This document shows positions 6,349-63,463 of a stretch of 64,000 bases of DNA, piece by piece. Position 1 is the stretch's first letter, and each line of letters starts with the position of its first letter. The translations under genes and the position numbers were made by a program. Source of the stretch: an uncultured Planctomycetota bacterium (GTDB taxonomy: Bacteria; Planctomycetota; PUPC01). The stretch is taken from NCBI GenBank assembly GCA_964385685.1, contig CAYLQD010000002.1, forward strand, positions 20,704-84,703, given 5' to 3'. The notes beneath the pieces are model-generated. The model worked only from the letters and a program-made list of their open reading frames with translations, ran no database searches and was not told the DNA's origin.

Positions 6349-6349
6349 G

Positions 6350-17759: not shown

Positions 17760-18060
17760 CGATTTCGCCTGGCCCGCCCCCACTTGCCGCCGCCGTTCAG
17801 GCCCGTTCACGGGCCTTTGCGAGGAGCTTTAGCTCCGAGTCCAGGCCCGGCCTTTGAGGCCGGGTGAGGCGGACGGGCGCTTCCCTGCGGCCAAAGCCCC
17901 GTTCACGGGGCTTTTCCGGCATCACGGGGTAGCGGCTTGAGCCCGTCGGGGAAGCCCCGTGAACGGGGCTGCATCGGGGGGGGACGGCCCCACGTGCGAC
18001 CCCCGCTCAAAGCGGGGGCCTGGACTCGGCCCTGAAGGGCCTCGCGAAGCGGCGTGAACG
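17760..18060. repeat. Cluster of at least 6 consecutive GC-rich short hairpins plus a long-range inverted repeat (CCGAGTCCAGGCC ... GGCCTGGACTCGG)
   Basis: Read directly: ggcccgTTCAcgggcc, agccccgTTCAcggggct, agccccgTGAAcggggct, cccccgcTCAAAgcggggg. 17806-17818 is the reverse complement of 18019-18031. Confidence 0.6.
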
Positions 18061-18133
18061 CCGCTGAAACAATGGTTCACGAAAATGAGGGCGGGTCAGC
18101 ATTTCGCCCCGCACGGGCACGCGCGACTAACCT

Positions 18134-40167: not shown

Positions 40168-41950
40168 CCCACCAGCATCCGTTTCGGGGCGTGAAGTTCG
40201 CCTTGAGCAACTCGGTCGCGTCGCGGAAACTCAACTCGACGGGCGTGCCCGCCTTGAGCAGTTCGCCCGTCAGCCGCGCGTGCAGATAGCGGGCGGAGCG
40301 CTCGCGGCACGTCGTCGGCGGCGCCTCGGCGAGCAGCGAACGAAGAATGTCCACCGGCCGCGCCGCGGCCCGCCGGCGGCGCCGCCTCGTCTCCTTCCGG
40401 CAATTGACGACAACATCGTAGCCGACGGCGCCCTCGGCCGTGACCTGCTTGAACGTCTCGTGCTGCTTGTCGAGCGTCTGGATCGCGGCGACGTGAAATC
40501 CGGCCGCCTCGACGCCCCGCTGGATGGCCGCCCAGACGTCGGCCCGCGTGTTGTGGAAGACGAGCGTCATCCACCGCCCCGGCCGGAGCGCACGGTGAAT
40601 CTCGCCGAACGCCGCCGCCATCAGATCGCCGTACTCCACGACCCCCTTCGCCTGGCTCCGGCTGACGACCGCCTCGTCCCGGACACGCGTCCGCCACCCG
40701 AGCCAGCTCTCCCAGAGGAAGTTCAGCTCCGAATACATGATGTTCTGCCCGAACGGCGGGTCCGTGAAGACGTAGTCGATCGAGGCATCGGGGATGTTGG
40801 ACAGGTCGGCGGCGCTTTGCGTCGAGATGCGTAGCCGCGCGGCGGAGTCGGGCGGAACCTCGGCCGCCGCGCGGCAGAGGGCGCCGATCCGCCGCGCGAA
40901 CATCTCGAGCACGTTGATCTCGGCGCTGAAGCTCGGCAGGTACATCGTGCCGAGGATCGGGCCGGGGGCCATTCGCCGCGACGGGATGTACTTGATGAGC
41001 CGGGACGCGCGGACCATGATGGCGGTGACCGCGAAGAGCGCCCGGGCGCGGAACCTGACGGGGCGCAGCGTTGTCGCCGCGGCCCACAGCGCGCTCACGG
41101 CCTGGCGGTTTCGCGGTGTGAAGAGATCGGCCACGGTGCGGACTCCGCTCCGGCGCACGCGGCTCAACTCATCGAGCCCGAGCGGAATCTCGTCGGTCGG
41201 GAACCACAGGCCGTTGAGCGACGGCCTGGCCAACCGGACGCCGCTGCGCCCGCCGACGGGCGCCTCGGGCAAGTCGCAGCCATCGGGACAGCAGACGGCG
41301 GCCGCGACCGGACGGCTGCCGACGCGATCCTTGAGCTTCTTGACGACCTTCTTCCCGCAGGCGGGGCAGCGATAGCTCGAACGGACGCAGCGCTTCGAAT
41401 CAACCGCCGCGTCCCACAGCGTGTATCGCCTGGCACAGCGCGGGCAACGTAGCACGTCGCTCCAGATGACATACCGGACGGTCGCGTCGGCCCGGCACTC
41501 GGGGCAGCGTGTCCGGTAGAGCGGCTCGAGCGCCGGCCGCACCGACTCGAGCAGACCCTCGAGTACGGCGCGAAGTCCGTCCACATCGACGCCATCGCAG
41601 TTGTTGTATGCGAGGAATGTCGCGAACGGCGAGAGGTCGGAGAGGAGCGCCCGCCGGCCGCTCTTGAGCGCGGCGACGCCCGTCATGCCGGAGCCGCAGA
41701 ACGGGTCAAGCACGGTGTCGCCCGGCCGGGTGTAGTGCTCGATGTACGGCTCGATGGCTTCGGGCGGGACCTTGGTGTGGTACATGTGGGCGCGGTAGGC
41801 GGGCGAGCCCTTCGTCCCGCGGACGTCGCGCGCGAACGGCTCGGCCACGGAGCGCGCCCCCCGCCCCGGCACGGCGAAATCCTCGAAGTGCGGGTTCCGC
41901 CGAGGCGTCCACACCGGTTGCGTGTCGAGTCGGAGCCGCGGTCGCTTCAT
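40148..41950 (-). CDS. DNA amino-methyltransferase (N6-A/N4-C, alpha-class motif order) with zinc-ribbon-rich insert
   Basis: Motif I 'VLDPFCGSGMTGVAA'. About 300-aa insert with CPEC, CPRC, CPAC and CCPDGC pairs. Motif IV 'TDPPFGQN'. ATG 41950 overlaps the recD2 stop (ATGA). Its 3' end overlaps the recO start. Confidence 0.7.
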   Translation of the reverse strand: MKRPRLRLDTQPVWTPRRNPHFEDFAVPGRGARSVAEPFARDVRGTKGSPAYRAHMYHTKVPPEAIEPYIEHYTRPGDTVLDPFCGSGMTGVAALKSGRRALLSDLSPFATFLAYNNCDGVDVDGLRAVLEGLLESVRPALEPLYRTRCPECRADATVRYVIWSDVLRCPRCARRYTLWDAAVDSKRCVRSSYRCPACGKKVVKKLKDRVGSRPVAAAVCCPDGCDLPEAPVGGRSGVRLARPSLNGLWFPTDEIPLGLDELSRVRRSGVRTVADLFTPRNRQAVSALWAAATTLRPVRFRARALFAVTAIMVRASRLIKYIPSRRMAPGPILGTMYLPSFSAEINVLEMFARRIGALCRAAAEVPPDSAARLRISTQSAADLSNIPDASIDYVFTDPPFGQNIMYSELNFLWESWLGWRTRVRDEAVVSRSQAKGVVEYGDLMAAAFGEIHRALRPGRWMTLVFHNTRADVWAAIQRGVEAAGFHVAAIQTLDKQHETFKQVTAEGAVGYDVVVNCRKETRRRRRRAAARPVDILRSLLAEAPPTTCRERSARYLHARLTGELLKAGTPVELSFRDATELLKANFTPRNGCWWDAVRTD

Positions 41951-44142
41951 CGTCCTCGCAACCTCTCCGCGAGCCGTGTGCACCGCCGCCGGATGCGGTC
42001 GTTCCGCACGGCCATCCCCAGCGCCTTCTTGTCCCCGACGATCACCACGAGCCGGATGCCGCGCGTCACCGCCGTGTAGAGCAGGTTGCGTTGAAGCATC
42101 ACGTAGTGCTGCGAGGCGAGCCCGATGACGACCGCGGGGTACTCGCTGCCCTGCGACTTGTGCACGGAGATCGCGTACGCCGACTGCAAGCTGTCGAGTT
42201 CGTCGAACCCGTACGTGACGTGCCGGTCGTCGAACCGCACCGTGACCTTTTCGTCGATGCGGTCGATCTCCGCGACCCGCCCGATGTCACCGTTGAACAC
42301 GTCCTTCTCGTAGTCGTTCCGAATCTGCATCACCTTGTCGTTGGGCGCGAACGCGTTGCCGAACCGGTGGATCTCCGGCCCGGCACCGGGATTGAGACAG
42401 CGCCGCAGCTCGTCGTTCACGTTCGTCACGCCGGCGACGCCGCGGTACATCGGCACCATCACCTGGATGTCGTCGGCCGGGTCCATCTTGAACCGCTTCG
42501 GGATGCGATTGGTGCACAACTCCTTGATCGTCTCGAGCACGTCCTCGGGCGTGTTCCGCTCGATGAAGTAGAACCCCTCGGCCTCGGCGGGCCGCCCCGA
42601 GAGATCGGGCATCTCGCCGTGGTTGATGTGGTGCGCGTTCGTGATGATCGGGCTCCGCTCGGCCTGGCGGAAGATCTGCTCGAGCCGCTTCACGGGGAAC
42701 GCGCCGGACCGGATGATATCGCGGAGCACGTTGCCGGGCCCGACGGACGGGAGCTGGTCGACGTCGCCAACGAGCACGAGCACGGCCGTCAGCGGCACGG
42801 CGAGCAGCAAATCGCGCATCAGCGCGATGTCGATCATCGACGTTTCGTCGACGATCACGGCGTCGGCCTCGAGCGGATTCTCGGCGTTCATCGAGAACTC
42901 GCCCGTCGACGGGTTCCACTGGAGCATGCGGTGGATGGTCTTCGCCTCGTGCCCGGTTGTCTCGGCGAGGCGCTTGGCCGCCCGGCCGGTCGGCGCGGCC
43001 AGGAGAACCCGCATGCCCTTCTTCCGCAGGATCGGGATGATGCAGTTGACGATCGTCGTCTTGCCGACGCCGGGCCCGCCGGTGATGATCGTCACCTTGC
43101 TCGTCAGGACGGTCGAGACGGCCTCGCGCTGCGTCGGGTCGAGGTCGATCTTGTTCCGCTGCTCGGCCCAGCGGACCGCGGCGGGCGCGTCGATCTCCCG
43201 AAGCTCCGAGTCCGCCTGTCCGATGGCGTGGAGCAGTTGGGCCGCCTGCCATTCGGCGTCGTGGAGCGCGCACGCATAGACGGGCTCGTCGTCGAACGTT
43301 CGCTCGACCACGATACGGCCGTCGCGCTCTTCGTCGGCCAGCGCCGCCTCGACGACGTCGAACTCGACCTGGAGGAGTTCCGAGGCCTTGTGCACGAGGC
43401 GTTCGAGCGGAAACGCGACGTGCCCGTCGCTCGCGAGCTGTCCGAGCACATATTCGAGGCCGGCCCGGGCCCGTTCGAGCGAGTCGTGCGGGAAGCCGAG
43501 GTGTCGAGCGATCGCGTCGGCCTTCTTGAACCCGATGCCGCGGACCTCCGACGCGAGGCAGTATGGGTTCTGCTTGATGGCCTCGATCGCGGCGGCCCCG
43601 AACGTCTTGTAGACGCGCGAAGCGTAGGCGGCGCTGATCCCGAGCCCTTGCAGGAAGACCATCACGTCGCGGGCCGAGCGGTGCTCGCCCCACGACCGCA
43701 CGATGCCATCGAGCCGCCCGCGCCCGATGCCCTCGACCTCGAGCAGCCGCTCCGGGCTCTCGTCGATCACGTCGAGCGTCCGCTCGCCGAACTTCCGGAC
43801 GATCCGGCGCGCGAACTCCGGCCCGACGCCCTTGATGAGCCGCGACGCCAAATAGCGTTCGAGTCCCTTGAGCGTGGGCGGGGCGATCGAGCTGTAGCGC
43901 TCGACCGCGAACTGCCGGCCGAAACGTTTGTGGTTCGTCCATCGCCCCTCGACGAGCAGCGCCTCGCCCTCGCAGAGCGAGACGAACGCGCCGACGACGA
44001 TGATCGGCTCGCCGAGGCGGGTGGCGTCGTCGGGGAGGAGTTGTGCCACGGCGTAGTGCGTCTCGTCGTTCGAGTAGATCACCCGCTCGACAGTGCCGCG
44101 GATGGTCTCGGTCGGGCCTGATTGCTTGGCTGCGTTCGCCAA
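41947..44142 (-). CDS. recD2: RecD2-type SF1 ATP-dependent DNA helicase
   Basis: N-terminal OB/HhH ('LIKGVGPEFARRIV', 'VEGIGRGRL'), Walker A 'ITGGPGVGKTT', 731 aa as in RecD2/YrrC. Confidence 0.85.
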   Translation of the reverse strand: MANAAKQSGPTETIRGTVERVIYSNDETHYAVAQLLPDDATRLGEPIIVVGAFVSLCEGEALLVEGRWTNHKRFGRQFAVERYSSIAPPTLKGLERYLASRLIKGVGPEFARRIVRKFGERTLDVIDESPERLLEVEGIGRGRLDGIVRSWGEHRSARDVMVFLQGLGISAAYASRVYKTFGAAAIEAIKQNPYCLASEVRGIGFKKADAIARHLGFPHDSLERARAGLEYVLGQLASDGHVAFPLERLVHKASELLQVEFDVVEAALADEERDGRIVVERTFDDEPVYACALHDAEWQAAQLLHAIGQADSELREIDAPAAVRWAEQRNKIDLDPTQREAVSTVLTSKVTIITGGPGVGKTTIVNCIIPILRKKGMRVLLAAPTGRAAKRLAETTGHEAKTIHRMLQWNPSTGEFSMNAENPLEADAVIVDETSMIDIALMRDLLLAVPLTAVLVLVGDVDQLPSVGPGNVLRDIIRSGAFPVKRLEQIFRQAERSPIITNAHHINHGEMPDLSGRPAEAEGFYFIERNTPEDVLETIKELCTNRIPKRFKMDPADDIQVMVPMYRGVAGVTNVNDELRRCLNPGAGPEIHRFGNAFAPNDKVMQIRNDYEKDVFNGDIGRVAEIDRIDEKVTVRFDDRHVTYGFDELDSLQSAYAISVHKSQGSEYPAVVIGLASQHYVMLQRNLLYTAVTRGIRLVVIVGDKKALGMAVRNDRIRRRCTRLAERLRGR

Positions 44143-49894: not shown

Positions 49895-50920
49895 TCACTT
49901 CTTCTCCCGTTTCGTGCCTTCGTACTTCGCCTTCGGGGGCTTGACCTCTTCGACGATCGCCCAGCCGGTGCCGACCATCTTCTGGCGCTCGTCGAAGGCC
50001 TTCTTCCACTCCTCCGGCGTGTGGGCCTGGCCGGGGACGGCGTGCTGGTCCCGCTCGGCGAGCGGGGGCACCGGCCGGTCTTCGGGCCCGTCATACCATT
50101 CCTTCGGCGTGAGCGCCCGGCCCTGCCGGACAAAACCTTCGCGCTCGATCTCCTCGCAATAGTGGGCGCCGGCCGCGAACGCGCGGGAGATCGCGAGGAT
50201 CGCCCATGTCGCCTCGCCCGAGAACCCGAGATCGAGCATCACGGCGCCGGACGCGCCGAGCAGATCGATATCGACCGGCTCGGGACTCGCCGCCCCCGCG
50301 GCCTTGACGACCTCCTTCATGAAGGCGACGTGCTCGCCCGCCACGCCCAGCTTCTCGGCTCGCGCCATCATCCGCTTCGCGGCCGGATCCTTGAGCATCA
50401 GGTCCGAAACGCCGAGCGCCTCGTCGTCCTTCTTGTGCTCGACGACGAGCTTCGCGGCCTCCTCGAGCGACATCTCGCCCTCGTCGACCTTGTGCAGGTA
50501 CTCGTCCATGATCGTGCCGAACGCGCAGTAGGCGCCGAAGGCGTGGCCGAATGCGAGGATCGACGCGCCCGCTCCCTGCGTGAGGAGCGTCTTCGACTGC
50601 GCGACGAGCCGCGAGATCGCGGCCGGAGCCGACAGCCCGTCCTCCATGCCGAGGATCATCACGTAGTTGAGCATCTGATTCTCTTCTTCCGTGGGGATCC
50701 GCGCCTGGAAGTCGACGAAGATCACGTCCGCGAGCCCGTACCCCGCCTCGGCCAGTTCGGTCGTGTCGTAGCCGCGGGCCACGATCCGGTGCACGTTCTT
50801 GTAGGCCACTTCGGACAGCCAGCGGAACGGCTCCCGCCCGTCGTTGGTGTCACGCTCGACCGTTCCCCACTCGCGGTCGTGGTAGTCGTAGCGGAGCCGC
50901 GGATCGTCTAGATTACCCAT
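49895..50920 (-). CDS. Citrate synthase-family protein (short, citryl-CoA lyase-like), paralog 2
   Basis: 'ARGYDTTELAEAGYGLADVIFVDFQARIPT' citrate-synthase N-motif. AAGGAG RBS before ATG 50920. Confidence 0.5.
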   Translation of the reverse strand: MGNLDDPRLRYDYHDREWGTVERDTNDGREPFRWLSEVAYKNVHRIVARGYDTTELAEAGYGLADVIFVDFQARIPTEEENQMLNYVMILGMEDGLSAPAAISRLVAQSKTLLTQGAGASILAFGHAFGAYCAFGTIMDEYLHKVDEGEMSLEEAAKLVVEHKKDDEALGVSDLMLKDPAAKRMMARAEKLGVAGEHVAFMKEVVKAAGAASPEPVDIDLLGASGAVMLDLGFSGEATWAILAISRAFAAGAHYCEEIEREGFVRQGRALTPKEWYDGPEDRPVPPLAERDQHAVPGQAHTPEEWKKAFDERQKMVGTGWAIVEEVKPPKAKYEGTKREKK

Positions 50921-51804
50921 TGGAGGTATTCTCCTTCTTCCTTCTGTTTCCTGGCGTGCTCCTGACGCGCCTCGGCCGGAGGCACCTCGCGCTGATCCGG
51001 CCCGACGTACTTGATCATCGAGAGGTCGAGCATCTGGATCATCGGCTCGGCCTTCGACGCGGCCCACGCCCGCCCCTTCTTCATGTGGAACAGCGCGTGT
51101 GCGGCGCAACTGAACCCGCGGCAGACGCAGCCGATGCACCACGCGGCGTTCGGCGAAAAACCGAGGTCGGCGAGCGCCGTGTTGCCGGCGCCGATCATGT
51201 TGACGGCGACGTAGGAACGGCCCTCGCTCTCACGGCGGCCGTGGAAGTACTTCTCGACGGCCCGCTGGAACTGCAGGTACACGCCGCCGAGTCCCAGTTC
51301 CTCCTGCTTGAGGTGCGTCGGCTCCGCACGTGGATCGCCGTCGGTGTGCTGCGGCTGCCCCATGCCCATCACGGGCTGCTTCGCGTCGAGGTGCTCGTCG
51401 ACAAGAATCTTGCCCATCTCGTCGAGCGTCTTGCCCTCGACACGGGCGCGCTCGATGTGCTGATTCATCATGTACCCGTGCGCGGCGCCCGGGCCGTGGG
51501 CCCCGCCGAACGTCATGACCGACGCAGCGATGGCCGCCGGCAGGTTCGGCCGGCCGCTGATGACGGCGACGGCCGACGCGGCCGAGGGTGACATCGAGTG
51601 CTCCAGAAACTCACCCATCTCGTACTCGAGCATCTTGTGCTCGGGCGTCGTCGGAATCCGGCCCTGAAAGAGCACGAAGAGCGCGTCGCAGAACGAATAT
51701 CCCTCCTCGGCCAGCTCGCTCAGATCGTAGCCGCGGACGACGGTCTTGTCCTCCGTCTTGTACGAGATACTCGTCTTCCTCTTGATTGGCGGCTCTCTAT
51801 TCAC
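50908..51804 (-). CDS. Citrate synthase-family protein (short, citryl-CoA lyase-like), paralog 1
   Basis: 'VRGYDLSELAEEGYSFCDALFVLFQGRIPT', 'FGGAHGPGAAHG' (compare GPLHGGA), 'GMGQPQHTDGDPRA' (compare GFGHRVYK.DPRA). Confidence 0.55.
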   Translation of the reverse strand: MNREPPIKRKTSISYKTEDKTVVRGYDLSELAEEGYSFCDALFVLFQGRIPTTPEHKMLEYEMGEFLEHSMSPSAASAVAVISGRPNLPAAIAASVMTFGGAHGPGAAHGYMMNQHIERARVEGKTLDEMGKILVDEHLDAKQPVMGMGQPQHTDGDPRAEPTHLKQEELGLGGVYLQFQRAVEKYFHGRRESEGRSYVAVNMIGAGNTALADLGFSPNAAWCIGCVCRGFSCAAHALFHMKKGRAWAASKAEPMIQMLDLSMIKYVGPDQREVPPAEARQEHARKQKEEGEYLQWVI

Positions 51805-51849: not shown

Positions 51850-52100
51850 CCATTCCTTGCCCCGAAGGGGCAAAAGCGGCAGCTTGGCTGCCGTCGCAGT
51901 TTGCCCAAGGCAAACTGCCAGGCGAGCGACGCTCGCCCATCAGCCCAGGGCGAAGCCCTGGGTAACAGAACACGTACCGATCAAGCCCTGAAGGGGCGTT
52001 AGAGGATTCCTATCGCCCCTTCAGGGCTTCCGAGCCTGCCTGACCCTTTCTCCCAGGGCTTCGCCCTGGGCTGATGAATTCGAGCCTTTCAGGCTCAGCA
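51850..52100. repeat. Hairpin-cluster repeat element (copy A): at least 8 consecutive GC-rich hairpins
   Basis: ttgccccGAAggggcaa, gcggcagcTTGgctgccg, gtttgccCAAggcaaac, gcgagcgACGctcgc, cccagggcGAAgccctggg, and a 16-bp IR aagccctgaaggggcg/cgccccttcagggctt. 51875-51945 is about 93% identical to the reverse complement of 62230-62300. Confidence 0.65.
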
Positions 52101-52144: not shown

Positions 52145-53527
52145 TCACATCTTCACCGACAGGGCCGGGAAGCCCGAGTTGGACAGATGCTTCAGCGTCT
52201 TCGCGACGAAATCCACATGCTCGTCCGTCGGACGCCCGGACGCGAGGTCGAAACACTCGGTGTAGCTCTTGCCGATCGACGCGGTCGCGAGCCCATCTTC
52301 GTATTTCGGGAGCAGCGCGTTGGCGAGGTCGCTCGCCTCGGCCCGCGTCATGCCCGCGCTCGCGAGCGCCATGTCCGTCGTGACGCGCATCTCCATCGGC
52401 GTCACGTAGTCCGCCACGGTCGCCTTCGCCGGATGCGGCGTCTGAATCGACACGCCCGACGCGATCATCGCCGGAATGAACGCGGCGCTCTCGTAGTAGA
52501 ACGACTCCGTCATCGGGCCGCCGGCGTTGTAGGCGAGAGTGAGCGTCGGCATCGTCGTGTTTCGCGAGATCGCCTGCGAACTGGCGGCCGTCGCCCAGAT
52601 CACGTCGCGTGTGGTTGAGCAACTGGTGTTGACGTGCACCGGGAGCGAGAGGTAGTAGTTGCACTGATAGACGAGCATCCCGAAGAAGACGTAGGCCGTG
52701 TTGAGGATGGCGGTGCCTTCGGGGCCGCCGGCGTATCCGCCCAGCATCGGGGCGCTCGCCAGCACGACGTTGTATTCCGAACTCAGGCCCCAGACCGCCT
52801 TGGCCATCATCTCGCGGTTGGTCTTGAACTCGGCCAGTGAGCCGATGATGATGCAGTCGCTCGGCCGGAGCACAAACTGTGCGGCCGCGGCGGCAATGGT
52901 CGCCGTTGCGCTGCCGGCGGTCGCGATGCCGTTGATGATCGGCAGGCCAGGCCGGCCGGCGTCGCGGCACGCCGCGCGGGCAATCTTGAGCGACCGAATG
53001 GCTCCGAGAATCTCCGTCGGTTGCCCCGTGACAATCGCCCGCCCGTCGATCCTGTCGAGCGCGTTCACACTCATCGAATCGGCCGCCCGGATCAAGGCAT
53101 TCCCTCGGACGATCTTGTACGCGATCTCCTCGCTCGACGCGACGATGCCGGAGCCGACGTGGCACCACGGCCGCGCGCTGCTGTCGGGCTTACGCGAGCG
53201 GAAGATGCGGGCCTCCTTGCCCTCGCCGAAACGGCAGTCGCCGTTGTACGTCGCGACGGCTTCGAGCACCTCCTCGCGGGTGAAGCGGATGACGCTCTGT
53301 GTGTCCTGGAAGTACACACCGCACTCGACGAAGAAATCGACGGCCGCGTCGAAGACCTTGTCGGCGAGCGCGTCGTCCGACGGGACGGGCGTGTCGGGGT
53401 CGTAGCGGATGTCGTACTTCCCGACGAGCCGCTTCAGGGTCGCGTAGACGTTACCGAGGTCGAACGTTTCGACCGGCAGCTCCGGGCCCTTCTGCGCCCG
53501 GTCGCATACCTCAAGAAGACTGATCAT
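52145..53527 (-). CDS. MtmB-family (monomethylamine methyltransferase-like) protein, no in-frame UAG, paralog 1
   Basis: 'FVECGVYFQDTQSVIRFTREEVLEAV' (compare MtmB LVECGVYCTDTERVCKFTEEEIWDAI), 'GRPGLPI', 'PMLGGYAGG', 'IGKSYTECFDL'. 460 aa, uninterrupted. Confidence 0.7.
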   Translation of the reverse strand: MISLLEVCDRAQKGPELPVETFDLGNVYATLKRLVGKYDIRYDPDTPVPSDDALADKVFDAAVDFFVECGVYFQDTQSVIRFTREEVLEAVATYNGDCRFGEGKEARIFRSRKPDSSARPWCHVGSGIVASSEEIAYKIVRGNALIRAADSMSVNALDRIDGRAIVTGQPTEILGAIRSLKIARAACRDAGRPGLPIINGIATAGSATATIAAAAAQFVLRPSDCIIIGSLAEFKTNREMMAKAVWGLSSEYNVVLASAPMLGGYAGGPEGTAILNTAYVFFGMLVYQCNYYLSLPVHVNTSCSTTRDVIWATAASSQAISRNTTMPTLTLAYNAGGPMTESFYYESAAFIPAMIASGVSIQTPHPAKATVADYVTPMEMRVTTDMALASAGMTRAEASDLANALLPKYEDGLATASIGKSYTECFDLASGRPTDEHVDFVAKTLKHLSNSGFPALSVKM

Positions 53528-53536: not shown

Positions 53537-54913
53537 TCACTGGTGCTTCAGTGCGAAACCCATCGAGCGGAGTTCTCCCATTGCCTCGCCGTAGAGGTCA
53601 ACGTATTCCTGGCACGGCCGCCCGGTGACGACGTCGTGGCAGTCATGGTACTTCTTCCCGATGGGGGCGTCGTCGATCGTGTCCTCGTACATCGTCAGGA
53701 GCTTCTTCACGATCCCGTTGGCGTCCTCGCGTTTCATCCCGACCGTCGCTTCGGTGATCTCGACCGAACCGCGCATTTCCATCGGGGTGATGTAGTCGTT
53801 GAGGACGGCCTTTGCCGGGTGCGTGGTCTGGACGGACAGCCCCGACGGTATCGCGGTCGCGATGTAGGCGGCGCTCTCATAGAAGAACTGCTTGGTCATC
53901 GGCCCCGCAGAGATGTAGCCCAGCGACCAAACGAGTTCCTTCGTGTTGCGGCTGATGGCCTGCGAACTCACGGCCGTGCACCAGAGGACGTCGCGCATCG
54001 TGGAGCAGCCCCGACTGATGTGCACGGGGAATGTCAGATGATAGTCGCAGTTGAGCAGCACAAGCCCGACCAGCCGGTACGCGACGTTCACCACGGCCGT
54101 GCCCGCAGGGCCGCCGGCATAGCCACCGACGAGCGGGCCCGACTCGTTGCCGATGTTGGCGCCCCAGCTCTGGAGATACGTCGCTTTGTTGAGCGTGCCC
54201 ATGTCGAACTTCATCTCGGCCATCGCACCGACGAGCCAGCCGTCGGATGGGCGAAGCCCGAACTGCGGACCACTGGCCGCAATCGCCGCCATCGACGTTC
54301 CCGCGGTCGAGATGAGGTTGCCGATGGCCAATCCCGGCCGGCCGGCGTGTTGAAGCGCATCACGGGCCACCTCGATTCCGCGGATCGCACCCATGATCTC
54401 CGTCGGCATGCCGGACGTGACCATGTAGCCGTGGACGGTCTCCAGCGCGGGCACGCTGATGGAGTTCGCCTGCCTGATGCCGGCATAGTCTCGAACCAGG
54501 TTGAAGGCAATCCGTTCTTCCGTGTTGACGATGCCGCTGCCAACGTGGTACCACGGCCGCGTGTCGCTGTCGGGCAAGCGGGGCGTCCACTCGAAGCGAT
54601 CTTTCCCTTCCCCCATGATGCAGCGGCCGCGAGCGTTCGCGACCGCGTGGAGAATCTCTTCGCGCGTGAACTTGATGATCCTGTGGGTATCGGTGCAGTA
54701 GACGCCGACGGCGGCAAGAAAGTCGACGGCCGCCTGATACGTGCGGTCGGCGAGGTCGTCGTCGGCCGGGACCGGCGTCTCGGGGTCGTACACGATGCCG
54801 TATTTCTCGCGCAGGTTTCGCGCGTTCGCGTAGACGACATCGAGGTCGAACTCATCCGACGTCATGGCCGGGCCGTCCTGCGCCCGCCGGCAGATTTCGG
54901 GCATTCCGATCAT
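53537..54913 (-). CDS. MtmB-family methyltransferase-like protein, paralog 2
   Basis: 'AVGVYCTDTHRIIKFTREEILHAV', 'GRPGLAI', 'PLVGGYAGG', 'IGKKYHDCHDV'. 458 aa, uninterrupted. Confidence 0.7.
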   Translation of the reverse strand: MIGMPEICRRAQDGPAMTSDEFDLDVVYANARNLREKYGIVYDPETPVPADDDLADRTYQAAVDFLAAVGVYCTDTHRIIKFTREEILHAVANARGRCIMGEGKDRFEWTPRLPDSDTRPWYHVGSGIVNTEERIAFNLVRDYAGIRQANSISVPALETVHGYMVTSGMPTEIMGAIRGIEVARDALQHAGRPGLAIGNLISTAGTSMAAIAASGPQFGLRPSDGWLVGAMAEMKFDMGTLNKATYLQSWGANIGNESGPLVGGYAGGPAGTAVVNVAYRLVGLVLLNCDYHLTFPVHISRGCSTMRDVLWCTAVSSQAISRNTKELVWSLGYISAGPMTKQFFYESAAYIATAIPSGLSVQTTHPAKAVLNDYITPMEMRGSVEITEATVGMKREDANGIVKKLLTMYEDTIDDAPIGKKYHDCHDVVTGRPCQEYVDLYGEAMGELRSMGFALKHQ

Positions 54914-57009: not shown

Positions 57010-60000
57010 ATGTCCACAGGACCAGTTGCGGCGACGCCGTCCGACGGCGGCCCGACCACGGTCGCCGGCTATGAGATCATCTCCAAGATCGGCGAGGACG
57101 CCGTCGGGACCGTCTTCAAGGCGCGGCAGCTCTCAACGGACCGCCTCGTCGCGCTGAGAGTCGTCAACGCGAAGATGGCGGCCGACAAGCCGTTTATGGA
57201 CAGCTTCCTGCGCGACGCCCGGGTCGCGGCCGGGCTCAAGCATCCGAACATCATCGAGGTGTTCGACGCGGGGACGGCCGAAGGCCAAGCGTACCTCGCG
57301 ATGGAGCTCGTTGCCGGGCGGGACCTCAAGAAGCTTCTCGCCACGACCGGCGCATTGGAGCAGCAGCGGGCGCTCGAGATCTCCCGCGACATCGCCCAGG
57401 CGCTCGACTGCATCCACCAGGCGGGCGTGGTCCATCGCAACGTCCGGCCCGAGAACATCTTCGTCGGAAGCGACGGCGCCGCGCGGCTCACGGGTCTGGG
57501 CGCCGCCCACCGGCCCAATGTCGGTGTCCTGGGCCAGCCGGGTTCCGGCGCCGCGCGCGAAGCCGCCGACTATGTGTCGCCGGAGGAGGCGCGGGGCGGC
57601 GAGGGCATCGACGCTCGCGCCGACATCTACTCCGTCGGCGCCACTTTGTACCACATGTTGACAGGCGACCCGCCCTTCACGGGCAAGGCGGCCGCTGACG
57701 TGCTGTCCAAGCACGCGACGACCCCCGCGCCCAATCCCTGCGCGGCCGCGCCCGGCGTCTCGGCGCACGCGGCTGCCCTCATTCACAGGACGATGGCGAA
57801 GGATCCCGCGAACCGCTACGGGAGCGCCCACGAGCTGCTGGCCGACCTGAAGCTGTTGCTCGGATGGGCGGCCGAGCCGGCCGCTCCGCGATCGAGTGCG
57901 CCCGACACCCGCGCGGACCTCGGCCTGAGGGACAAAGAGCCGCCTCGCAAATCGAGTGCGCCCGACATCCGCGCGGACCTCGGCCTGACGGACGAAGAGC
58001 CGCCTCGCAAACGGCGCGGCCTGGTCGTCGGCGTCCTCGGGCTCGTCCTGCTCGCGGCGGCCGTGGGGCTCGGAGTCATGTTCTTCCCCGAATCGACACC
58101 GGAACAGAGCCCCGAGGAACAGGAGTTTGCAGCCGTCCGGAAGTGGGTCGCGGACAATCCGGGCAAATACCACGCCGCCCAGGAGAAGTACCGCCGCCTT
58201 CAGAGCACCGTCACCGATCCCGACCGCAAACGCCGAATCAAGGAGACCCTGCTCGAACTCGAGGTCGAGCGCGGCCGGGCCGCGGACGCATTCTTCGCCG
58301 AACTCGAGTCGACGGCAAACAAGCTGGCGGAGCGCCGCGACTATGGCAAGGCCGTCGGTCTCTATCGGAATCTTCCGCCGCAGTTCAAGGACGGCCTCCT
58401 TCCGCGGGCCAGCGAGGCGATCGCAGCGCTCGAGGCCGCATCCAAATCGGCCCTGGCGATGCACATCAAGCGCGCCCGCCTGCTGCTCGAAGAGGAAGAC
58501 CCGATCGCGGGCCTCGAAGAGCTTGGCCGCGCCGACGACCTGATCCGCGGCGAGCCGCCGCGGGAGGTGGACGAACTCCGGGCCAACCTCGAGCGGGCCA
58601 TGGTGTGGCGGGCGCTGATCGCCAAGGAGCGCCTGGAGAAGGTGCTGGACGCCGTGGACGCGCTCGTTGCCGAGGGGAAGCTGGCCGACGCGGCCGGCAA
58701 GGCCCTGGCCGTTGCGAAGGACGCGGAGTCGGCTTACGCGCCGGCCACCGCGAAGAGCATCGCGGGAATCGGGGCCGCGCTGCGGCAGGCCGCGTCGGAC
58801 TCGAAGAAGCAGGTCGAAGCTCTCACGCCCGACGGCCATATGGCCGCCGCCATTCTCGCGCTCGCGGCGGGCCGGCCTGCCGAGATGGGGACGGCGATCA
58901 CCCGTGCCGACGCCCACGAGTTTCGCGTCCGCTACCTCGACAAGCTCGACGTTCTGAAGAAGCAGATCGCGCGGCGCGAGGCCGAAGAACGCCGGCGGCA
59001 GCTTGTTCAACTCACGGCGTTTCGGGCGACCCTGCCCGGCGAGTTGAAGAAGCGCAACTACAAGCCCCTGCTTGCCAGGTTGGATCAGATCATCGCCGAC
59101 CCCGATCTGTCGGCGATTCGCGAACACGCCGAGGCCGACCGGCGGATCCTCGCGCGGCTCGCGGCGACGCTCGACCGCATCCGGCTGAACGTCCGCACCG
59201 AGGCGGGCAAGGCGAAGAAGACCCCGACACGCCGCCGAGGCATCCCGGCGACGATCACGAAGTATGATCCCGCGACCGACACGGTGACGTTCAGCGCCGG
59301 CGCGCCGGAGGCGATCGCGTCGATGCGGGCCGTCGACCTGGCGAGCTTGCTCGGCCTCGACCCGGGCCCGGCCGAGCAGCACCACGAGAGCGTCGCGCTT
59401 CTCCTCATCGCGTCCGGCGAGCCGAAGGCGGCCGAATCCCACGCCGCGAAGGTCGCACAGCGCACCAACCTCGACCGCCTCAACACGATGCTGGCCCCGC
59501 CCGGACGCGCGGATGACGAGATCGACGTCGCCGCCGCAGTCGAGGACGACACGACCGACGAGGCGGCCTCGACCGAGAAGGTCGTGAAGAAGGTGCTGGG
59601 CGAGGACTGGAAGCCGGCCGAGGAGCCAGAGCAGTTCAAGGGCTCGCTCATCCCCGGCTACGACGACGCATTCCTGAAGCAGGGGAGGTGGGCGGAGGGG
59701 CGGGCGTACTACACGGAGCAGTTGACCGGGGTCCTCTCAGCCAAGAAGCCCGACCTGCTCGCCGCTCAGCGGTTGCTGTACGCCCAGGACGTGTGCCAGC
59801 TCTTTCCCGCGGTCGCGGGCGGGGCGCCGTCGCCCGAGGACCGCCCCTTCGCACAGTGGCTCCTGGCGCATCCGAGCCTCGTAAGGAAGCTCGTCGCGGC
59901 CGTTCGGCCCGGCGACAATCCCGCGGGGATCTTCCGCATGCTGTACCTGATCAAGACCAAGGCCCCGGTGAAGAAGGTGACGCATGAGAATCTGATGGTG

Positions 60001-61945: not shown

Positions 61946-62167
61946 CTACTCGGCCTGCGGCCACTCGGCCGCCTCCTCCTCTCCGGCAAGATAGGCAAAG
62001 CGGTTCCACTCGAACTCCCGGCCTGAAATCGGACACCGCAGCGTCACCTTCCGCTCCGTCACGCCGACGACTTCCCAGTCGCCCGCGCGCGGCCCGCCCT
62101 CGATGCGGATCTTCTGCCCCACCGCGTGCGGGTACGGGCGGAACACCGTCACCTTCTCTTCTGCCAC
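61946..62167 (-). CDS. Small hypothetical protein (73 aa)
   Basis: ORF only. No motif recognised. Confidence 0.3.
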   Translation of the reverse strand: MAEEKVTVFRPYPHAVGQKIRIEGGPRAGDWEVVGVTERKVTLRCPISGREFEWNRFAYLAGEEEAAEWPQAE

Positions 62168-62184
62168 GTTCCACGCCTCCGTCT

Positions 62185-62480
62185 ATCTCGCCCTTTCAGG
62201 GCTTCGCCGTTTCGACATCCCGTTCCCGGGGCGTTGCCCTGGGCTGTTGGGCGAGCGTTGCTCGCCTTGCAGTTTGCCTTGGGCAAACTGCGACGGCAGC
62301 TTTGCTGCCGCTTCGGCCCTTTCAGGGCCAACGGCTACGGCCAAGCGCTCCTTGGTCCGTTGAGAAGCTCCTCCTTCGGGGTGGCCCCGACTCTGTCGGG
62401 GTCGCCGGAGGCGACAAGAGGAAGTCGCTTCGTCCTCTTGTCCGCTTCGCGGACCCGGACGGAGTCCGGGCCACCCGACG
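62185..62480. repeat. Hairpin-cluster repeat element (copy B, inverted relative to copy A)
   Basis: gcgagcgTTgctcgc, cagtttgccTTGggcaaactg, gcggcagcTTTgctgccgc, ggccctTTCagggcc, accccgacTCTgtcggggt, gacaagagga..tcctcttgtc. Confidence 0.65.
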
Positions 62481-62521: not shown

Positions 62522-63463
62522 TCAGTAATGGACCTTGCCGATCTTGAGGCGGAGGGCTCGCTCGACCCCGCTCGTCAGCACGGCCGCCGCGATCGAGTAG
62601 AACTTGCTCTCGGGCGAGTCGGCCCGCGACGTGAGCACCACGGGCGCCGACGCGCCGATCACGACCCCGGCGACTTTCGCGCCGGCCGCGTAAACGAACG
62701 ACTTGGTCAGGATATTGCCCGCCTCGATATCGGGCACGAGCAGCACGTCGGCGAGGCCCGCGACCGGCCCGCCGATCTTCTTGTGCTTCGCCGCCGCCAG
62801 CGACATGGCGTTGTCGAACGCGAACGGGCCGTCGACTATGCAGTGCGGCGCGTACTGCCGGCGGTCGGCCATCTTCGCCAGGCACGTCGCGTCGACGGTC
62901 GCCGACATCGCGGGGTTCAGCAGCTCGACGGCGGCGAGGCAGGCGACGCGCGGCTCCGGAATGCCGATCACGTCGCAAAAGTAGTCGGCGTTGAGGATGA
63001 TCTCCGCCTTGGCCTCGAGGTCGGGCGCGATGTTCATCCCCGAATCGGTCACCATGATCAGGCGGTCGTAGCCGGGCATCTCGCACGCGAAGATGTGGCT
63101 CATCCGGTAGCCGGTCCGGAGGCCCACCTGCTTGTCGAGCACGCCGCGCAGGAAGTCATCGGTGTGGATGTGGCCCTTCATCATCACGTCGGCCTTGCCC
63201 GTGCTGACCAGCTCGGCGGCCCGCATGGCCGCCCGCTCGGGCGCGGGCTCGTTGACGACATCGTCCTTGCCGAGCGCCAACCCGGCCTGGTCGGCCAGCT
63301 CGCGGATGCGGGGCTCGTCGCCCACGAGGGTCGCCTCGGCGATGGTCGCCTCGCGGGCGAGCTTCACCGCTTCGACGACCGTGTGGTCGGCCGCCGCGGC
63401 GACGGCGACGCGCTTGATCGGATAGCCGGCCACCGCGTCAACAATTTCGGATAGCTTCTTCAC
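62522..63463 (-). CDS. Phosphate acyltransferase (phosphate acetyl/butyryltransferase family)
   Basis: 'IHTDDFLRGVLDK', 'SHIFACEMPGYDRLIMVTDSGMNIAPDLE', 'VLLVPDIEAGNIL' are typical of Ptb/Pta-type proteins. Confidence 0.75.
   Translation of the reverse strand: MKKLSEIVDAVAGYPIKRVAVAAAADHTVVEAVKLAREATIAEATLVGDEPRIRELADQAGLALGKDDVVNEPAPERAAMRAAELVSTGKADVMMKGHIHTDDFLRGVLDKQVGLRTGYRMSHIFACEMPGYDRLIMVTDSGMNIAPDLEAKAEIILNADYFCDVIGIPEPRVACLAAVELLNPAMSATVDATCLAKMADRRQYAPHCIVDGPFAFDNAMSLAAAKHKKIGGPVAGLADVLLVPDIEAGNILTKSFVYAAGAKVAGVVIGASAPVVLTSRADSPESKFYSIAAAVLTSGVERALRLKIGKVHY

What the first reader, a model, noticed from the sequence alone, without database searches (positions are those of the whole stretch)
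51850..52100. Novel family of hairpin-cluster repeat elements at three loci, with an inverted near-identical copy pair and flanking of the mini-peptide array
Three intergenic islands (17760-18060, 51850-52100, 62185-62480) each consist of 6-10 back-to-back GC-rich hairpins with 7-10-bp stems and 3-5-nt loops.

- The 51.9-kb and 62.2-kb copies share a segment of at least 70 bp at about 93% identity in inverted orientation (aagcggcagcNNNgctgccgtcgcagtttgcccaaggcaaactgc[c/a]aggcgagc[g/a]acgctcgccc), and similarity continues for about 130-200 bp.
- The 15-mer gaacacgtaccgatc is shared exactly between 51968-51982 and 18647-18661.

The structure is REP/BIME-like or MITE-like, but the sequence is not one I recognise. 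Each copy sits at the 3' side of minus-strand genes or between operon halves, so it may act as a terminator/attenuator, an mRNA stabiliser, or a structured ncRNA.
Basis: seen in the sequence. Interest (0 to 1): 0.6.

Follow-up and report, generated by a model that had tools for sequence, protein, structure and literature searches.

The report
Palindromic hairpin repeats inserted inside operons
Three gaps between genes in this planctomycete-like metagenome contig are filled with arrays of short perfect DNA hairpins, which behave like the selfish "REP/BIME" repeats known from other bacteria; their core unit resembles the orphan Rfam motif Acido-Lenti-1, so this is real but a known kind of thing.

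Summary
Three intergenic islands (17796-18068, 51857-52096, 62184-62480) each carry 5-6 perfect hairpins with stems of at least 7 bp, against about 0.1-0.2 in shuffles. Islands A (51.9 kb) and B (62.2 kb) share a 140-nt module in inverted orientation (78 nt at 92%).

**What it is:** mosaic arrays of short DNA palindromes of the REP/BIME kind.
- Both strands fold about equally well, with few G-U pairs.
- Between A and B, stems differ at 6% of columns, loops and linkers at 35-39%.
- The shared module sits in opposite orientations in two same-direction operons.
- In relatives with 76-89% identical flanking proteins, the same spacers are 15-77 bp. A and B are therefore lineage-specific insertions of about 290-340 bp.
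- One relative (L086) carries the core unit in a different spacer (47 nt, 94%).

**Closest known family:** the core unit (52052-52096) matches Rfam Acido-Lenti-1 (RF01687) over its full length at 29.5 bits. That is significant but below the 37-bit cut-off.

**Not supported:** no hairpin has a T-run terminator, and no TIR/TSD or transposase was found in the window. The shared 15-mer is at chance level.

**Caveats:** genome-wide copy number, the mobilising enzyme and any RNA-level effect could not be tested. Verdict: a new member of a known kind, of modest interest.

The parts
51857..52096 (.). Island A: array of perfect hairpins filling the 340-bp spacer between the MtmB-like gene and the citrate-synthase-like gene.
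   Evidence: RNA fold -180.7 kcal/mol, z = -10.3.
51857..51937 (.). Four back-to-back hairpins, part of the module shared with island B: hp0 TTGCCCC-gaa-GGGGCAA (51857-51873), hp1 CGGCAGC-ttg-GCTGCCG (51877-51893), hp2 GCAGTTTGCC-caa-GGCAAACTGC (51896-51918), hp3 GGCGAGC-gac-GCTCGCC (51921-51937).
   Evidence: Between A and B, stem columns differ at 6% and loop columns at 35%.
51929..51962 (-). Partial Acido-Lenti-1-like unit: 8-bp hairpin CCCAGGGC/GCCCTGGG followed by the CTGATG linker start, then hp3 in place of the second hairpin.
   Evidence: Rfam 19.7 bits. Own model R2 gives 18.0 bits, E=0.007.
51938..51998 (+). Unit U, left copy: CATCAG, CCCAGGGC-gaa-GCCCTGGG, 21-nt variable spacer, AAGCCCTGAAGGGGCG.
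   Evidence: Alignments A4/A5. Model R1 gives 81.4 bits, but this copy was part of the training set, so the match is by construction.
51983..52029 (.). Central long hairpin formed by the tails of two inverted U units: 16-nt arms, 100% complementary, 15-nt loop.
52012..52078 (-). Unit U, right copy, inverted. With the left copy it forms a tail-to-tail (REPIN-like) dimer whose outer 25-nt arms, 51938-51962 and 52052-52076, are 100% complementary.
   Evidence: (pair I21).
52052..52096 (+). Full-length Acido-Lenti-1-like two-hairpin unit: CCCAGGGCttcGCCCTGGG, CTGATGAATTCG, AGCCTttcAGGCT, C.
   Evidence: Rfam RF01687: 29.5 bits against a gathering score of 37, model positions 1-46 of 46, E=6e-5. 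Model R2, built from the published alignment, makes this the best hit in the whole window with filters off: 28.3 bits, E=2e-5. The copy in the relative L086 is 93.6% identical over 47 nt.
62184..62329 (.). Island B, shared module, inverted relative to A. It comprises a linker plus GCCCTttcAGGGC (62184-62202), CCCGGGGCgttGCCCTGGG plus CTGTTG (62225-62249), hp3 (62250-62266), hp2 (62269-62291), hp1 (62294-62310) and GGCCCTttcAGGGCC (62315-62329).
62341..62480 (.). Island B, private part: an imperfect long hairpin (GGGTGGCC...GGCCACCC) enclosing five mini-hairpins. No copy was found elsewhere.
17796..18068 (.). Island C: eight hairpins with mostly TTCA/TGAA loops. The island is itself a large imperfect palindrome (arms 17796-17865 and 17999-18068, 74%). 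It shares only the GCCCTGAAGGGCC mini-palindrome (18029-18041) with A and B.
   Evidence: (pairs I2, I24).
52145..53527 (-). Upstream flanking gene of island A: MtmB family, 460 aa.
   Evidence: Pfam PF05369, E=7e-82.
50908..51804 (-). Downstream flanking gene of island A: citrate-synthase-like, 298 aa. In relatives it sits 48-77 bp after the MtmB gene.
62522..63463 (-). Upstream flanking gene of island B: phosphate acetyl/butyryl transferase.
   Evidence: Pfam PF01515.
61946..62167 (-). Downstream flanking gene of island B: 73-aa ORF. In relative L089 its 80-aa counterpart starts 15 bp after the transferase gene.

Best explanation
The islands are mosaic arrays of short, perfectly complementary DNA palindromes. 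They are dispersed repeats of the REP/BIME kind that have inserted into short spacers inside operons (A and B) and into a divergent promoter region (C) of an uncultured, GC-rich Planctomycetota (Phycisphaerae-like) genome.

**Building block.** The recurrent unit is a two-hairpin element: CCCAGGGC-loop-GCCCTGGG, a CUGRUG... linker, then a 5-bp hairpin with a UUC loop. It is a divergent relative of the Rfam candidate RNA Acido-Lenti-1. Units occur singly, as inverted (REPIN-like) dimers, and joined to other private hairpins.

**Shown here.**
- The repeat family is real.
- It is strand-symmetric.
- Stems are conserved while loops and linkers diverge.
- The shared module occurs in both orientations.
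- The islands are lineage-specific insertions.
- A copy of the core unit lies at another locus in a relative.

**Inferred.**
- Spread happens at the DNA level, through a single-stranded hairpin intermediate handled in trans by a transposase of the RAYT/HUH type, or through recombination between palindromes.
- Once inserted, the arrays are co-transcribed with the operon. There they would act, if at all, as very stable RNA stem-loops that block 3'-5' exonucleases or partly attenuate read-through. That would shift the ratio of upstream to downstream gene products, as REPs do in E. coli operons (my own knowledge of that literature, not tested here).
For: 1. **Enrichment.** The islands hold 5-6 hairpins with stems of at least 7 bp, against 0.1-0.2 in shuffles.
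2. **Strand symmetry.** The + and - strands fold within 4-8% of each other, and only 0-8 of about 100 pairs are G-U.
3. **A versus B.** They align over 140 nt in inverted orientation. Stems differ at 5 of 84 columns, including one compensatory C-G to T-A change. Loops differ at 7 of 20 and linkers at 14 of 36 (Fisher p=4e-6).
4. **Orientation.** Both A and B lie in minus-strand operons but carry the module in opposite orientations.
5. **Insertion polymorphism.**
   - The MtmB-to-citrate-synthase-like spacer is 340 bp here. It is 191 bp in L038 (different hairpins, tagged GTAG/CTAC), 48 bp in L086, 77 bp in L087 and 49 bp in L040.
   - The transferase-to-small-ORF spacer is 354 bp here and 15 bp in L089.
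6. **Dispersal.** L086 (flanking protein 83% identical) carries the core unit in a different spacer, MtmB1 to MtmB2, which is 9 bp here. The match is 47 nt at 93.6%, E=2e-13.
7. **Dimer.** In A, two units form a tail-to-tail pair with 25-nt arms 100% complementary (pair I21).
8. **Link to a known multi-copy family.**
   - The unit matches RF01687 over its full length at 29.5 bits here and 26.2 bits in L086.
   - With a model built from the published alignment, the ten best hits in the window all fall in A or B.
   - 278 kb of other loci, including hairpin clusters from other phyla, give no further hit at E<=1 beyond L086 and L091, the window's own contig.
   - The published alignment itself shows tandem arrays and alternating orientations within a few hundred bases.
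9. **Clade context.** Close relatives carry canonical GTAG-tagged REP doublets (L038, L088, L089), so REP-type elements are active in this clade.
10. **Assembly.** One metagenome contig (L042) breaks inside the A/B module.
Against: - **Copy number is unknown.** Only the 64-kb window plus about 7 kb of the same contig could be read, and they hold three copies of the core unit. A six-frame peptide search for further copies found nothing.
- **No tag.** There is no GTAG or clear CGTC tag on the core unit; CAYCAG takes its place.
- **No enzyme.** None of the 40 of the ~50 called window genes scanned with Pfam hit a transposase family; annotation of the near-identical contig covers most of the rest, and one (40148-41983) was not checked.
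- **Private hairpins.** Most hairpins (hp0-hp3, the right half of B, all of C) were found only here, so 'family' is shown only for the core unit and the A/B module.
- **Selection on RNA cannot be excluded.** The element's 93.6% identity across relatives whose flanking protein is only 83% identical could reflect selection for an RNA function rather than for mobility.
- **No expression data.** Nothing shows whether the islands are transcribed or where transcripts end.
Confidence: 0.65

Rival explanations
1. The core unit is what Rfam lists it as: a structured small RNA (Acido-Lenti-1) with a trans- or cis-acting function. The islands would then be arrays of such RNA genes, for example a multi-hairpin RNA that binds or titrates a protein.
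For: - The unit is a full-length, significant match to RF01687.
- Weinberg et al. 2010 rated the motif as probably RNA, with covariation (PMC2864571, Additional file 2).
- The unit is more conserved than the flanking protein between the window and L086.
- The full-length copies in the window and in L086 are both antisense to the surrounding operon.
Against: - The score is below the gathering threshold. The first loop is one base short and lacks the conserved U-N-A-C. Near-invariant positions C32 and U46 differ.
- Copies occur in both orientations relative to transcription within one island.
- No sigma-70-like promoter or terminator is associated with the unit.
- Pairing is almost entirely Watson-Crick on both strands.
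- The elements are absent from orthologous spacers in relatives.
Confidence: 0.12
2. The hairpin clusters are U-tract-independent intrinsic terminators or attenuators, placed to end or throttle transcription after the MtmB genes and after the transferase gene.
For: - A and B begin 50-60 nt after a stop codon.
- A published computational and RNA-seq study proposes that clusters of hairpins terminate transcription without a U-tract (Gupta & Pal 2021, PMC8355165).
Against: - No island hairpin is followed by a T-run on either strand.
- No promoter-like site precedes the downstream genes.
- In relatives, A and B split operons whose genes are 15-77 bp apart, so strong termination would silence conserved downstream genes.
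- Island C lies upstream of both neighbouring genes.
- The module is used in both orientations.
Confidence: 0.1
3. The islands arose in place, by local duplication, inversion and template-switch 'perfecting' of quasi-palindromes. The A/B similarity would then be a single segmental copy event rather than the work of a mobile family.
For: - Islands A and C are themselves large palindromes (pairs I2, I21, I24).
- Most hairpins are private to one island.
- In unrelated orthologous loci of other phyla, loops of conserved stems are sometimes exact reverse complements, which is the signature of intra-palindrome template switching.
Against: - The core unit occurs in a different spacer in a different organism at 94% identity.
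- It matches a multi-copy family described in other phyla.
Confidence: 0.08
4. The A/B module is a miniature inverted-repeat transposable element (MITE) derived from an insertion sequence.
For: Its size (about 140 bp), its two copies in opposite orientation, and the assembly break inside it.
Against: - The module ends show no terminal inverted repeats and no target-site duplication.
- The internal structure is a chain of independent mini-palindromes.
- None of the window genes scanned with Pfam (40 of about 50) matched a transposase family.
Confidence: 0.05

Closest known systems
Acido-Lenti-1 RNA motif (Rfam RF01687; Weinberg et al. 2010, PMC2864571)
   Same: - Same architecture: an 8-bp hairpin of the form CCyAG..C/G..CUrGG, an invariant GCU after it, a 12-nt linker, then a 5-bp hairpin with a UUC loop.
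- The match covers the whole model (positions 1-46) in the window and in L086.
- Hairpin 1 is almost identical to metagenomic members of the family: CCCAGGGCUUACGCCCUAGG there, CCCAGGGCUUCGCCCUGGG here.
- The window's mini-palindrome GCCCCUUCAGGGC equals the second hairpin of several members.
- Both are multi-copy, clustered, and found in both orientations within a few hundred bases.
- The published alignment includes two copies from NC_005027. I take this to be the planctomycete Rhodopirellula baltica, from memory of the accession.
   Different: - The scores (29.5 and 26.2 bits) are below the 37-bit gathering cut-off.
- The first loop has 3 nt instead of 4 and lacks the U-N-A-C consensus.
- Near-invariant C32 and U46 are not kept, and G33-C45 is replaced by A-U.
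- Here the unit is embedded in larger arrays with other, unrelated hairpins.
- The family's function is unknown, so the match names the element but does not explain it.
REP elements, REPIN doublets and BIME mosaics (E. coli and Pseudomonas; GTAG/CGTC super-families of Di Nocera et al. 2013, PMC3733652; REPINs of Bertels & Rainey 2011, PMC3116915)
   Same: - Short (17-23 bp) extragenic palindromes.
- Inverted dimers able to fold into a longer hairpin.
- Mosaic clusters of different units.
- Location mostly between same-direction genes.
- Lineage-specific presence.
- Occasional intragenic copies: the hp2 stem with the same CGTC...CA flanks lies in frame inside an ORF of another Planctomycetota MAG, L016.
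- Canonical GTAG-tagged doublets exist in close relatives.
   Different: - The units in this window carry no GTAG tag.
- Only hp2 has a CGTC 5' flank, and its stem (10 bp, GC at the base, 3-nt loop) does not fit the four described CGTC families.
- High genome-wide copy number and an associated RAYT gene could not be checked.
- Stems are perfect and loops are triloops, unlike the bulged 35-bp E. coli REP.
Hairpin-cluster intrinsic terminators (Gupta & Pal 2021, PMC8355165)
   Same: Several adjacent hairpins, less than 15 nt apart, shortly after a stop codon. Average stem (about 7-8 bp) and loop (about 3.5 nt) lengths are similar.
   Different: - The islands here hold 7-8 hairpins, far beyond the usual two.
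- They lie inside conserved operons or upstream of genes.
- They are repeated elsewhere as sequence copies.
- They are absent from orthologous positions in relatives.

Membership tests
Acido-Lenti-1 (RF01687) | Score at or above the curated gathering threshold (37 bits). | tested here: not met
   29.5 bits (window 52052-52096), 26.2 bits (L086) and 19.7 bits (51929-51962). The match is nevertheless significant for a search of the window: E=2e-5 with model R2.
Acido-Lenti-1 (RF01687) | A 5' hairpin with an 8-bp stem (CC....../......GG), followed by the invariant G20, C21, U22. | tested here: met
   CCCAGGGC/GCCCUGGG followed by CU.
Acido-Lenti-1 (RF01687) | A 4-nt first loop starting with U (consensus U-N-A-C or UGAA). 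| tested here: not met
   The loop is UUC, 3 nt. Only the first U is kept.
Acido-Lenti-1 (RF01687) | A 12-nt linker, then a 5-bp hairpin with a 3-nt loop, with near-invariant C32, G33, C45 and U46. | tested here: inconclusive
   Linker length (12 nt), stem (5 bp) and loop (UUC) are met. C32 becomes G, G33-C45 becomes A-U (compensatory), and U46 becomes C.
Acido-Lenti-1 (RF01687) | Several copies per genome, often clustered. | tested here: inconclusive
   The ~71 kb readable from this contig (window plus ~7 kb) holds one full and two partial units plus several isolated second-hairpin copies, all within 10.5 kb of each other. The whole genome is not available.
REP / REPIN (GTAG super-family) | A short palindromic unit of 20-40 bp, located outside genes. 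| tested here: met
   Units of 17-23 bp lying in spacers.
REP / REPIN (GTAG super-family) | An unpaired GTAG tag at one end of the hairpin. | tested here: not met
   No island hairpin carries a GTAG/CTAC tag, and the relatives' GTAG-REP pattern has no match in the window. The core unit carries CAYCAG instead.
REP / REPIN (GTAG super-family) | Inverted doublets able to form a long hairpin. | tested here: met
   51938-51962 and 52052-76 are 100% complementary. The whole dimer 51938-52076 folds as one hairpin.
REP / REPIN (GTAG super-family) | Tens to thousands of copies dispersed over the genome. | not testable with these tools
   The source genome is not in the collections scanned. Only about 71 kb of the contig was readable.
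REP / REPIN (GTAG super-family) | A cognate RAYT (Y1 HUH transposase) gene flanked by the repeats. | not testable with these tools
   No scanned window gene matched a transposase family, and there are no such Pfam hits in the contig annotation. The rest of the genome is unavailable.
CGTC-tagged REPs (Di Nocera 2013) | A CGTC tag, an 8-9-bp stem starting with A/T pairs, a 4-5-nt loop and a CCA tail. | tested here: not met
   hp2 has a CGTC flank and a CA tail, also seen in L016. But its stem is 10 bp starting with GC and its loop is 3 nt.
Intrinsic (rho-independent) terminator | A GC-rich hairpin immediately followed by a U-run. | tested here: not met
   None of the terminator-like sites found falls on an island hairpin, on either strand.
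MITE | Terminal inverted repeats and a target-site duplication. | tested here: not met
   Neither is seen at the ends of the A/B module or of the unit shared with L086.

The most novel reading that the evidence does not exclude
These islands could be one local example of a much wider, undescribed class: clusters of perfect-stem, triloop mini-hairpins that insert into operon spacers, open reading frames (in frame) and even rRNA genes in many uncultivated phyla. Such clusters would be made by a hairpin-inserting or palindrome-perfecting mechanism that does not depend on the GTAG/RAYT system. On this reading, Rfam's 'Acido-Lenti-1 sRNA' would be a family of such mobile DNA palindromes rather than an RNA gene.

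The lead is as follows. A search for the hp2 stem alone returned 33 loci from about ten phyla. Many were embedded in similar clusters, including one inside a 23S rRNA gene and one in frame inside a 1004-aa ORF. However, control stems were about as frequent in viral contigs (19 loci against 16 and 8). The shared stem itself is therefore probably coincidence.
Probability: 0.12. Interest if true: 0.65.

Novelty: new member of a known kind. Interest (0 to 1): 0.33.

Why it matters
**Limited direct value.** The finding adds a REP/BIME-type repeat family to a poorly studied lineage (GC-rich Phycisphaerae-like Planctomycetota).

**It bears on an orphan Rfam motif.** Acido-Lenti-1 has had no function since 2010. 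Here a close relative of it behaves like insertion-polymorphic, orientation-independent palindromic DNA. That gives a concrete, testable alternative to the 'small RNA' label.

**Practical consequences.**
- Such arrays break metagenome assemblies (contig L042 ends inside the module).
- They can be miscalled as ORFs or ncRNAs.
- They mark operon positions where very stable RNA structures are tolerated, which is useful when interpreting expression in these organisms.

Tried and rejected
- **Rfam at gathering thresholds, whole window:** nothing.
- **tRNA/tmRNA scan:** none.
- **Terminator and promoter scans of the three islands:** no island hairpin has a T-run. The only promoter-like site is at 18134-18162(+).
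- **Scans of the genome and metagenome collections for the hp2 hairpin, meant to count copies in the source genome:**
  - The source genome is not in either collection.
  - The scans returned 33 loci from many phyla instead.
  - I first took this as a cross-phylum family. I dropped that after two control stems of the same composition gave similar counts in viral contigs (19, 16 and 8 loci), and after the Acido-Lenti-1 model found none of those loci.
- **Six-frame peptides of the module searched against 5.8 billion proteins, to catch copies miscalled as ORFs:** no hit.
- **Model R1 of unit U:** searched over 172 kb, it found only its four training copies.
- **Extending the contig to the left:** the look-up failed because the start codon I chose is not on record.
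- **The relatives' GTAG-REP pattern:** absent from the window.
- **blastn of island A against plasmids and phages:** no match.
- **The shared 15-mer:** at chance level.
- **Pfam scan of 40 of the ~50 called window genes:** no match to a transposase family.
- **Sub-threshold Rfam microRNA and frameshift-element hits on the long hairpins:** disregarded as generic hairpin matches far below their cut-offs.
Full report
**1. The observation**

A scan for perfect stem-loops (stem of at least 7 bp, loop 3-6 nt) over the 64-kb window finds 54 hairpins. Three tight groups stand out, at 17799-18065, 51857-52070 and 62250-62470.

- With stems of at least 5 bp, island A has 7 hairpins, B has 8 and C has 8.
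- Mononucleotide shuffles of the islands give 0.1-0.2 hairpins of at least 7 bp (maximum 2), against 5-6 observed.
- 27-38% of island bases lie in such hairpins, against 1.5% elsewhere in the window.
- Folding energies are 5-10 standard deviations below dinucleotide shuffles.
- A and B share 140 nt in inverted orientation at 81% (pair I1), with a 78-nt core at 92.3%, E=9e-26.
- The 15-mer shared by 51968 and 18647 is exact. But more than 60 (about 75) locus pairs in this 67%-GC window share an exact 15-mer, so it carries no weight, and 18647 is not in island C.
- Island C has no alignable similarity to A or B. It shares their architecture and one copy of the mini-palindrome GCCCTGAARGGGC. That pattern occurs 7 times (up to 1 mismatch) against 0.2 expected, and 6 of the 7 lie in the islands.

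**2. Context**

The window is a near-identical copy of a 95.9-kb metagenome contig, JGI 3300009128 Ga0118727_1000526. Four further contigs from other samples differ by one base in island A and by none in island B. Homologues of the flanking proteins that carry names are labelled Planctomycetota, Phycisphaerae or Sedimentisphaerales.

- **Island A** fills the 340-bp spacer between the second of two MtmB-family genes (52145-53527, minus strand) and a citrate-synthase-like gene (50908-51804, minus strand).
- **Island B** fills the 354-bp spacer between a phosphate acyltransferase gene (62522-63463, minus strand) and a 73-aa ORF followed by rubrerythrin.
- **Island C** lies in a divergent region. 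On one side is the start of a lipoprotein-like gene (16981-17691, minus strand). On the other is a good sigma-70-like promoter (18134-18162, plus strand) that precedes three mini-ORFs.

**3. Anatomy**

Read on the + strand, island A runs as follows:
- hp0 to hp3, four different hairpins 2-3 nt apart;
- a unit I call U: CATCAG, CCCAGGGC-gaa-GCCCTGGG, a 21-nt spacer, then AAGCCCTGAAGGGGCG;
- a 15-nt loop;
- a second U in inverted orientation;
- the hairpin GAGCCT-ttc-AGGCTC.

The two U units form a tail-to-tail dimer whose outer 25-nt arms and inner 16-nt arms are each 100% complementary. The result is a palindrome made of palindromes.

Island B carries hp0-like, hp1, hp2, hp3 and one U in the opposite orientation. 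It also has a private 140-nt compound hairpin. Island C is itself a large imperfect palindrome of eight hairpins with TTCA/TGAA loops (pairs I2 and I24).

**4. DNA palindromes rather than an RNA gene**

- Both strands of each island fold about equally well, with MFE differences of 4-8%. Only 0-8 of about 100 predicted pairs are G-U.
- Between A and B, stem columns differ at 6% (5 of 84, including a compensatory C-G to T-A change). Loop columns differ at 35% and linker columns at 39% (Fisher p=4e-6).
- The module is inverted between two operons that are transcribed in the same direction. The RNA copies would therefore be reverse complements of each other.
- No island hairpin is followed by a T-run, and there is no promoter-like site in or after A or B.

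**5. The islands are insertions, and the core unit is dispersed**

I fetched orthologous loci from relatives. The table gives the length of the same spacer in each.

| Spacer | Locus | Flanking protein identity | Spacer length | Content |
|---|---|---|---|---|
| MtmB to citrate-synthase-like | window | - | 340 bp | island A |
| | L038 | 84% | 191 bp | different hairpins flanked by GTAG/CTAC |
| | L086 | 83% | 48 bp | no cluster (one 5-bp hairpin) |
| | L087 | 80% | 77 bp | no hairpins |
| | L040 | 76% | 49 bp | no hairpins |
| Transferase to small ORF | window | - | 354 bp | island B |
| | L089 | 89% | 15 bp | no hairpins |

Sources. A and B are therefore lineage-specific insertions of about 290-340 bp into short operon-internal spacers.

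L086 carries GAGCCT-gaa-AGGCTC plus a U unit in a different spacer, between the two MtmB genes, which is 9 bp in the window. The match to the right end of island A is 47 nt at 93.6%, E=2e-13. So the same element sits at different places in related genomes. A model of U finds only its four training copies in 172 kb.

Relatives L038, L088 and L089 carry canonical GTAG/CTAC-tagged REP doublets (GCCSGCTY-nnn-RAGCSGGC), which are absent from the window. More distant relatives with 50-58% GC have almost no such hairpins.

**6. A known relative**

At relaxed thresholds, the segment 52052-52096(+) matches Rfam RF01687 (Acido-Lenti-1) over the whole model. This segment is the hairpin CCCAGGGC/GCCCTGGG, a 12-nt linker, and the hairpin AGCCU-UUC-AGGCU.

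- The window copy scores 29.5 bits against a gathering score of 37, E=6e-5. The L086 copy scores 26.2 bits.
- I rebuilt a model from 43 sequences of the published alignment (Weinberg et al. 2010, PMC2864571, Additional file 5) and searched the whole window with filters off. The best hit is the same segment, at 28.3 bits and E=2e-5.
- The ten best hits all lie in islands A and B, including several 'linker plus second hairpin' fragments.
- The same model finds nothing else (E<=1) in 278 kb of other loci, apart from L086 and L091, the window's own contig. This holds even though many of those loci are hairpin clusters from other phyla, so the match is specific.

The differences are: the first loop is one base shorter and lacks the conserved U-N-A-C, and positions C32 and U46 are not kept. 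I therefore treat the unit as a divergent relative, not a member.

The published alignment itself shows many copies per genome, tandem spacing of 74-192 nt, and alternating orientations within about 400 nt. The authors noted only that the motif is sometimes near group II introns. That behaviour is what one expects of REP-like DNA.

**7. Mechanism**

*Shown:* this is a repeat family of perfect palindromes, indifferent to orientation, polymorphic by insertion, and forming inverted dimers and mosaics.

*Inferred, on the spread:* the family spreads as DNA. The likely route is single-stranded hairpins handled in trans by a RAYT-like enzyme, the mechanism proposed for REP/REPIN elements (PMC3116915, PMC8266576, PMC3733652). 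The alternative is recombination or template switching between palindromes.

*Inferred, on the effect:*
- Relatives show that A and B sit inside operons, and no promoter follows them. The arrays are therefore probably transcribed as part of the polycistronic mRNA.
- There, chains of 7-10-bp GC stems would be strong barriers to 3'-5' exonucleases, or partial attenuators.
- This is the role established for REPs in E. coli operons (my own knowledge; not tested here).
- Island C, upstream of both neighbouring genes, fits 'inserted where tolerated' better than any single RNA function.

**8. The detour**

Scanning the genome and metagenome collections for the hp2 stem did not find the source genome. 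It did return 33 loci from about ten phyla.

- Many lie in similar clusters of perfect hairpins.
- One lies inside a 23S rRNA gene.
- One lies in frame inside a 1004-aa ORF of another Planctomycetota MAG, with the same CGTC...CA flanks as in the window.
- Some lie between tandem repeats whose sequence includes a tRNA T-arm-like GGTTCGAGTCC motif (my reading of the sequence; no tRNA was called there).

Two control stems of the same composition were about as frequent in viral contigs (19 loci against 16 and 8). The Acido-Lenti-1 model does not hit those loci either. I therefore take the shared stem as coincidence within a very large population of such hairpins. The breadth of that population is recorded as the speculative reading.

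**9. Verdict**

It is best explained as REP/BIME-type palindromic repeats whose core unit is a divergent relative of Acido-Lenti-1. It is a new member of a known kind.

Genome-wide copy number, the mobilising enzyme and any RNA-level effect remain untested.

Noticed in passing
window 18225-18305, 18413-18490, 18550-18627 (+): Three tandem mini-ORFs of 25-26 aa. Each has its own ribosome-binding site, a hydrophobic signal-like N-terminus and a G-(G)-C lipobox-like motif near the C-terminal third. They are preceded by a near-consensus promoter (TTGGTA, 17 nt, TATAAT at 18134-18162). After them comes the hairpin CCCCTTCCG...CGGAAGGGG at 18662-18686.
   Followed up: partly
window 52145-53527 and 53537-54913 (-): Two adjacent full-length MtmB-family (monomethylamine methyltransferase) genes without an internal stop codon, so they do not use pyrrolysine. 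They sit in an operon with a class-V aminotransferase, two citrate-synthase-like genes, an aldehyde dehydrogenase and a HAD hydrolase. The operon is conserved in several Phycisphaerae-like metagenome contigs.
   Followed up: partly
window 57891-58010: A 60-nt tandem duplication (95% identical) inside the 1502-aa Ser/Thr kinase ORF. It encodes a repeated 20-aa segment, SSAPD.RADLGL.D.EPPRK.
   Followed up: no
window 2188-2261: Two tandem copies (92%) of a 37-nt unit containing the inverted repeat GCCCGCC...GGCGGGC. They lie in the spacer before a pilin-like gene of a type IV pilus / type II secretion-like cluster. The fold is not better than shuffles.
   Followed up: partly
window 27428-27676 and 28112-28360: A 249-nt direct repeat at 74% identity. 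It corresponds to two neighbouring paralogous small ORFs (27352-27840 and 28036-28455, minus strand) with no Pfam match.
   Followed up: no
L013 5855-5925 and L017 5026-5096 (Candidatus Promineifilaceae MAG): Three adjacent perfect hairpins (stems GTAAACC, GCAGTTTGCC, CAAACC) lie inside the 23S rRNA gene. Rfam places the LSU rRNA at 3526-6619(-), a span of 3094 nt against a 2925-position model. The hairpins are present in both rRNA operon copies, like an intervening sequence made of mini-palindromes.
   Followed up: partly
L016 3614-3665 (uncultured Planctomycetota MAG): The hp2 hairpin with the same CGTC...CA flanks as in the window, plus a second hairpin (CGCCGTTCG), lies in frame inside a 1004-aa ORF. 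It encodes ...GPSQFAGGKLPRRSLPNG... and so looks like an intragenic palindromic insertion.
   Followed up: partly
L010, L025, L032, L037 (one is an Anaerolineae MAG; the others are unnamed metagenome contigs; orthologous loci): Two adjacent hairpins keep identical stems (GCGGAAAGC and GCAGTTTGCC) across four related contigs, while their loops differ. In some pairs the loops are exact reverse complements (CAA/TTG, TGC/GCA), as expected from inversion within a palindrome. Extra hairpins are inserted at different points of what looks like the start of a gene.
   Followed up: no
L038 14908-14979; L088 about 2995-3075; L089 about 7440-7520: Close relatives of the window's organism carry canonical GTAG/CTAC-tagged REP doublets (GCCSGCTY-nnn-RAGCSGGC, head-to-head). 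None occurs in the window or in the extra 7 kb of its contig.
   Followed up: yes
L042 (ENA ERZ23498658 scaffold_41428), end of contig: This contig, from a sample holding the same strain, stops inside the A/B shared module, at the loop of hp3. That is consistent with the repeat breaking the assembly.
   Followed up: yes
Published Acido-Lenti-1 alignment (PMC2864571, Additional file 5): Many Lentisphaera copies have an A-C mismatch at pair 4-17 on the annotated strand (CCUAGC...GCCAGG), which would be a G-U pair on the opposite strand. Copies on contig NZ_ABCK01000016.1 alternate in orientation within about 400 nt. Both points suggest the motif's strand and nature deserve re-examination.
   Followed up: no
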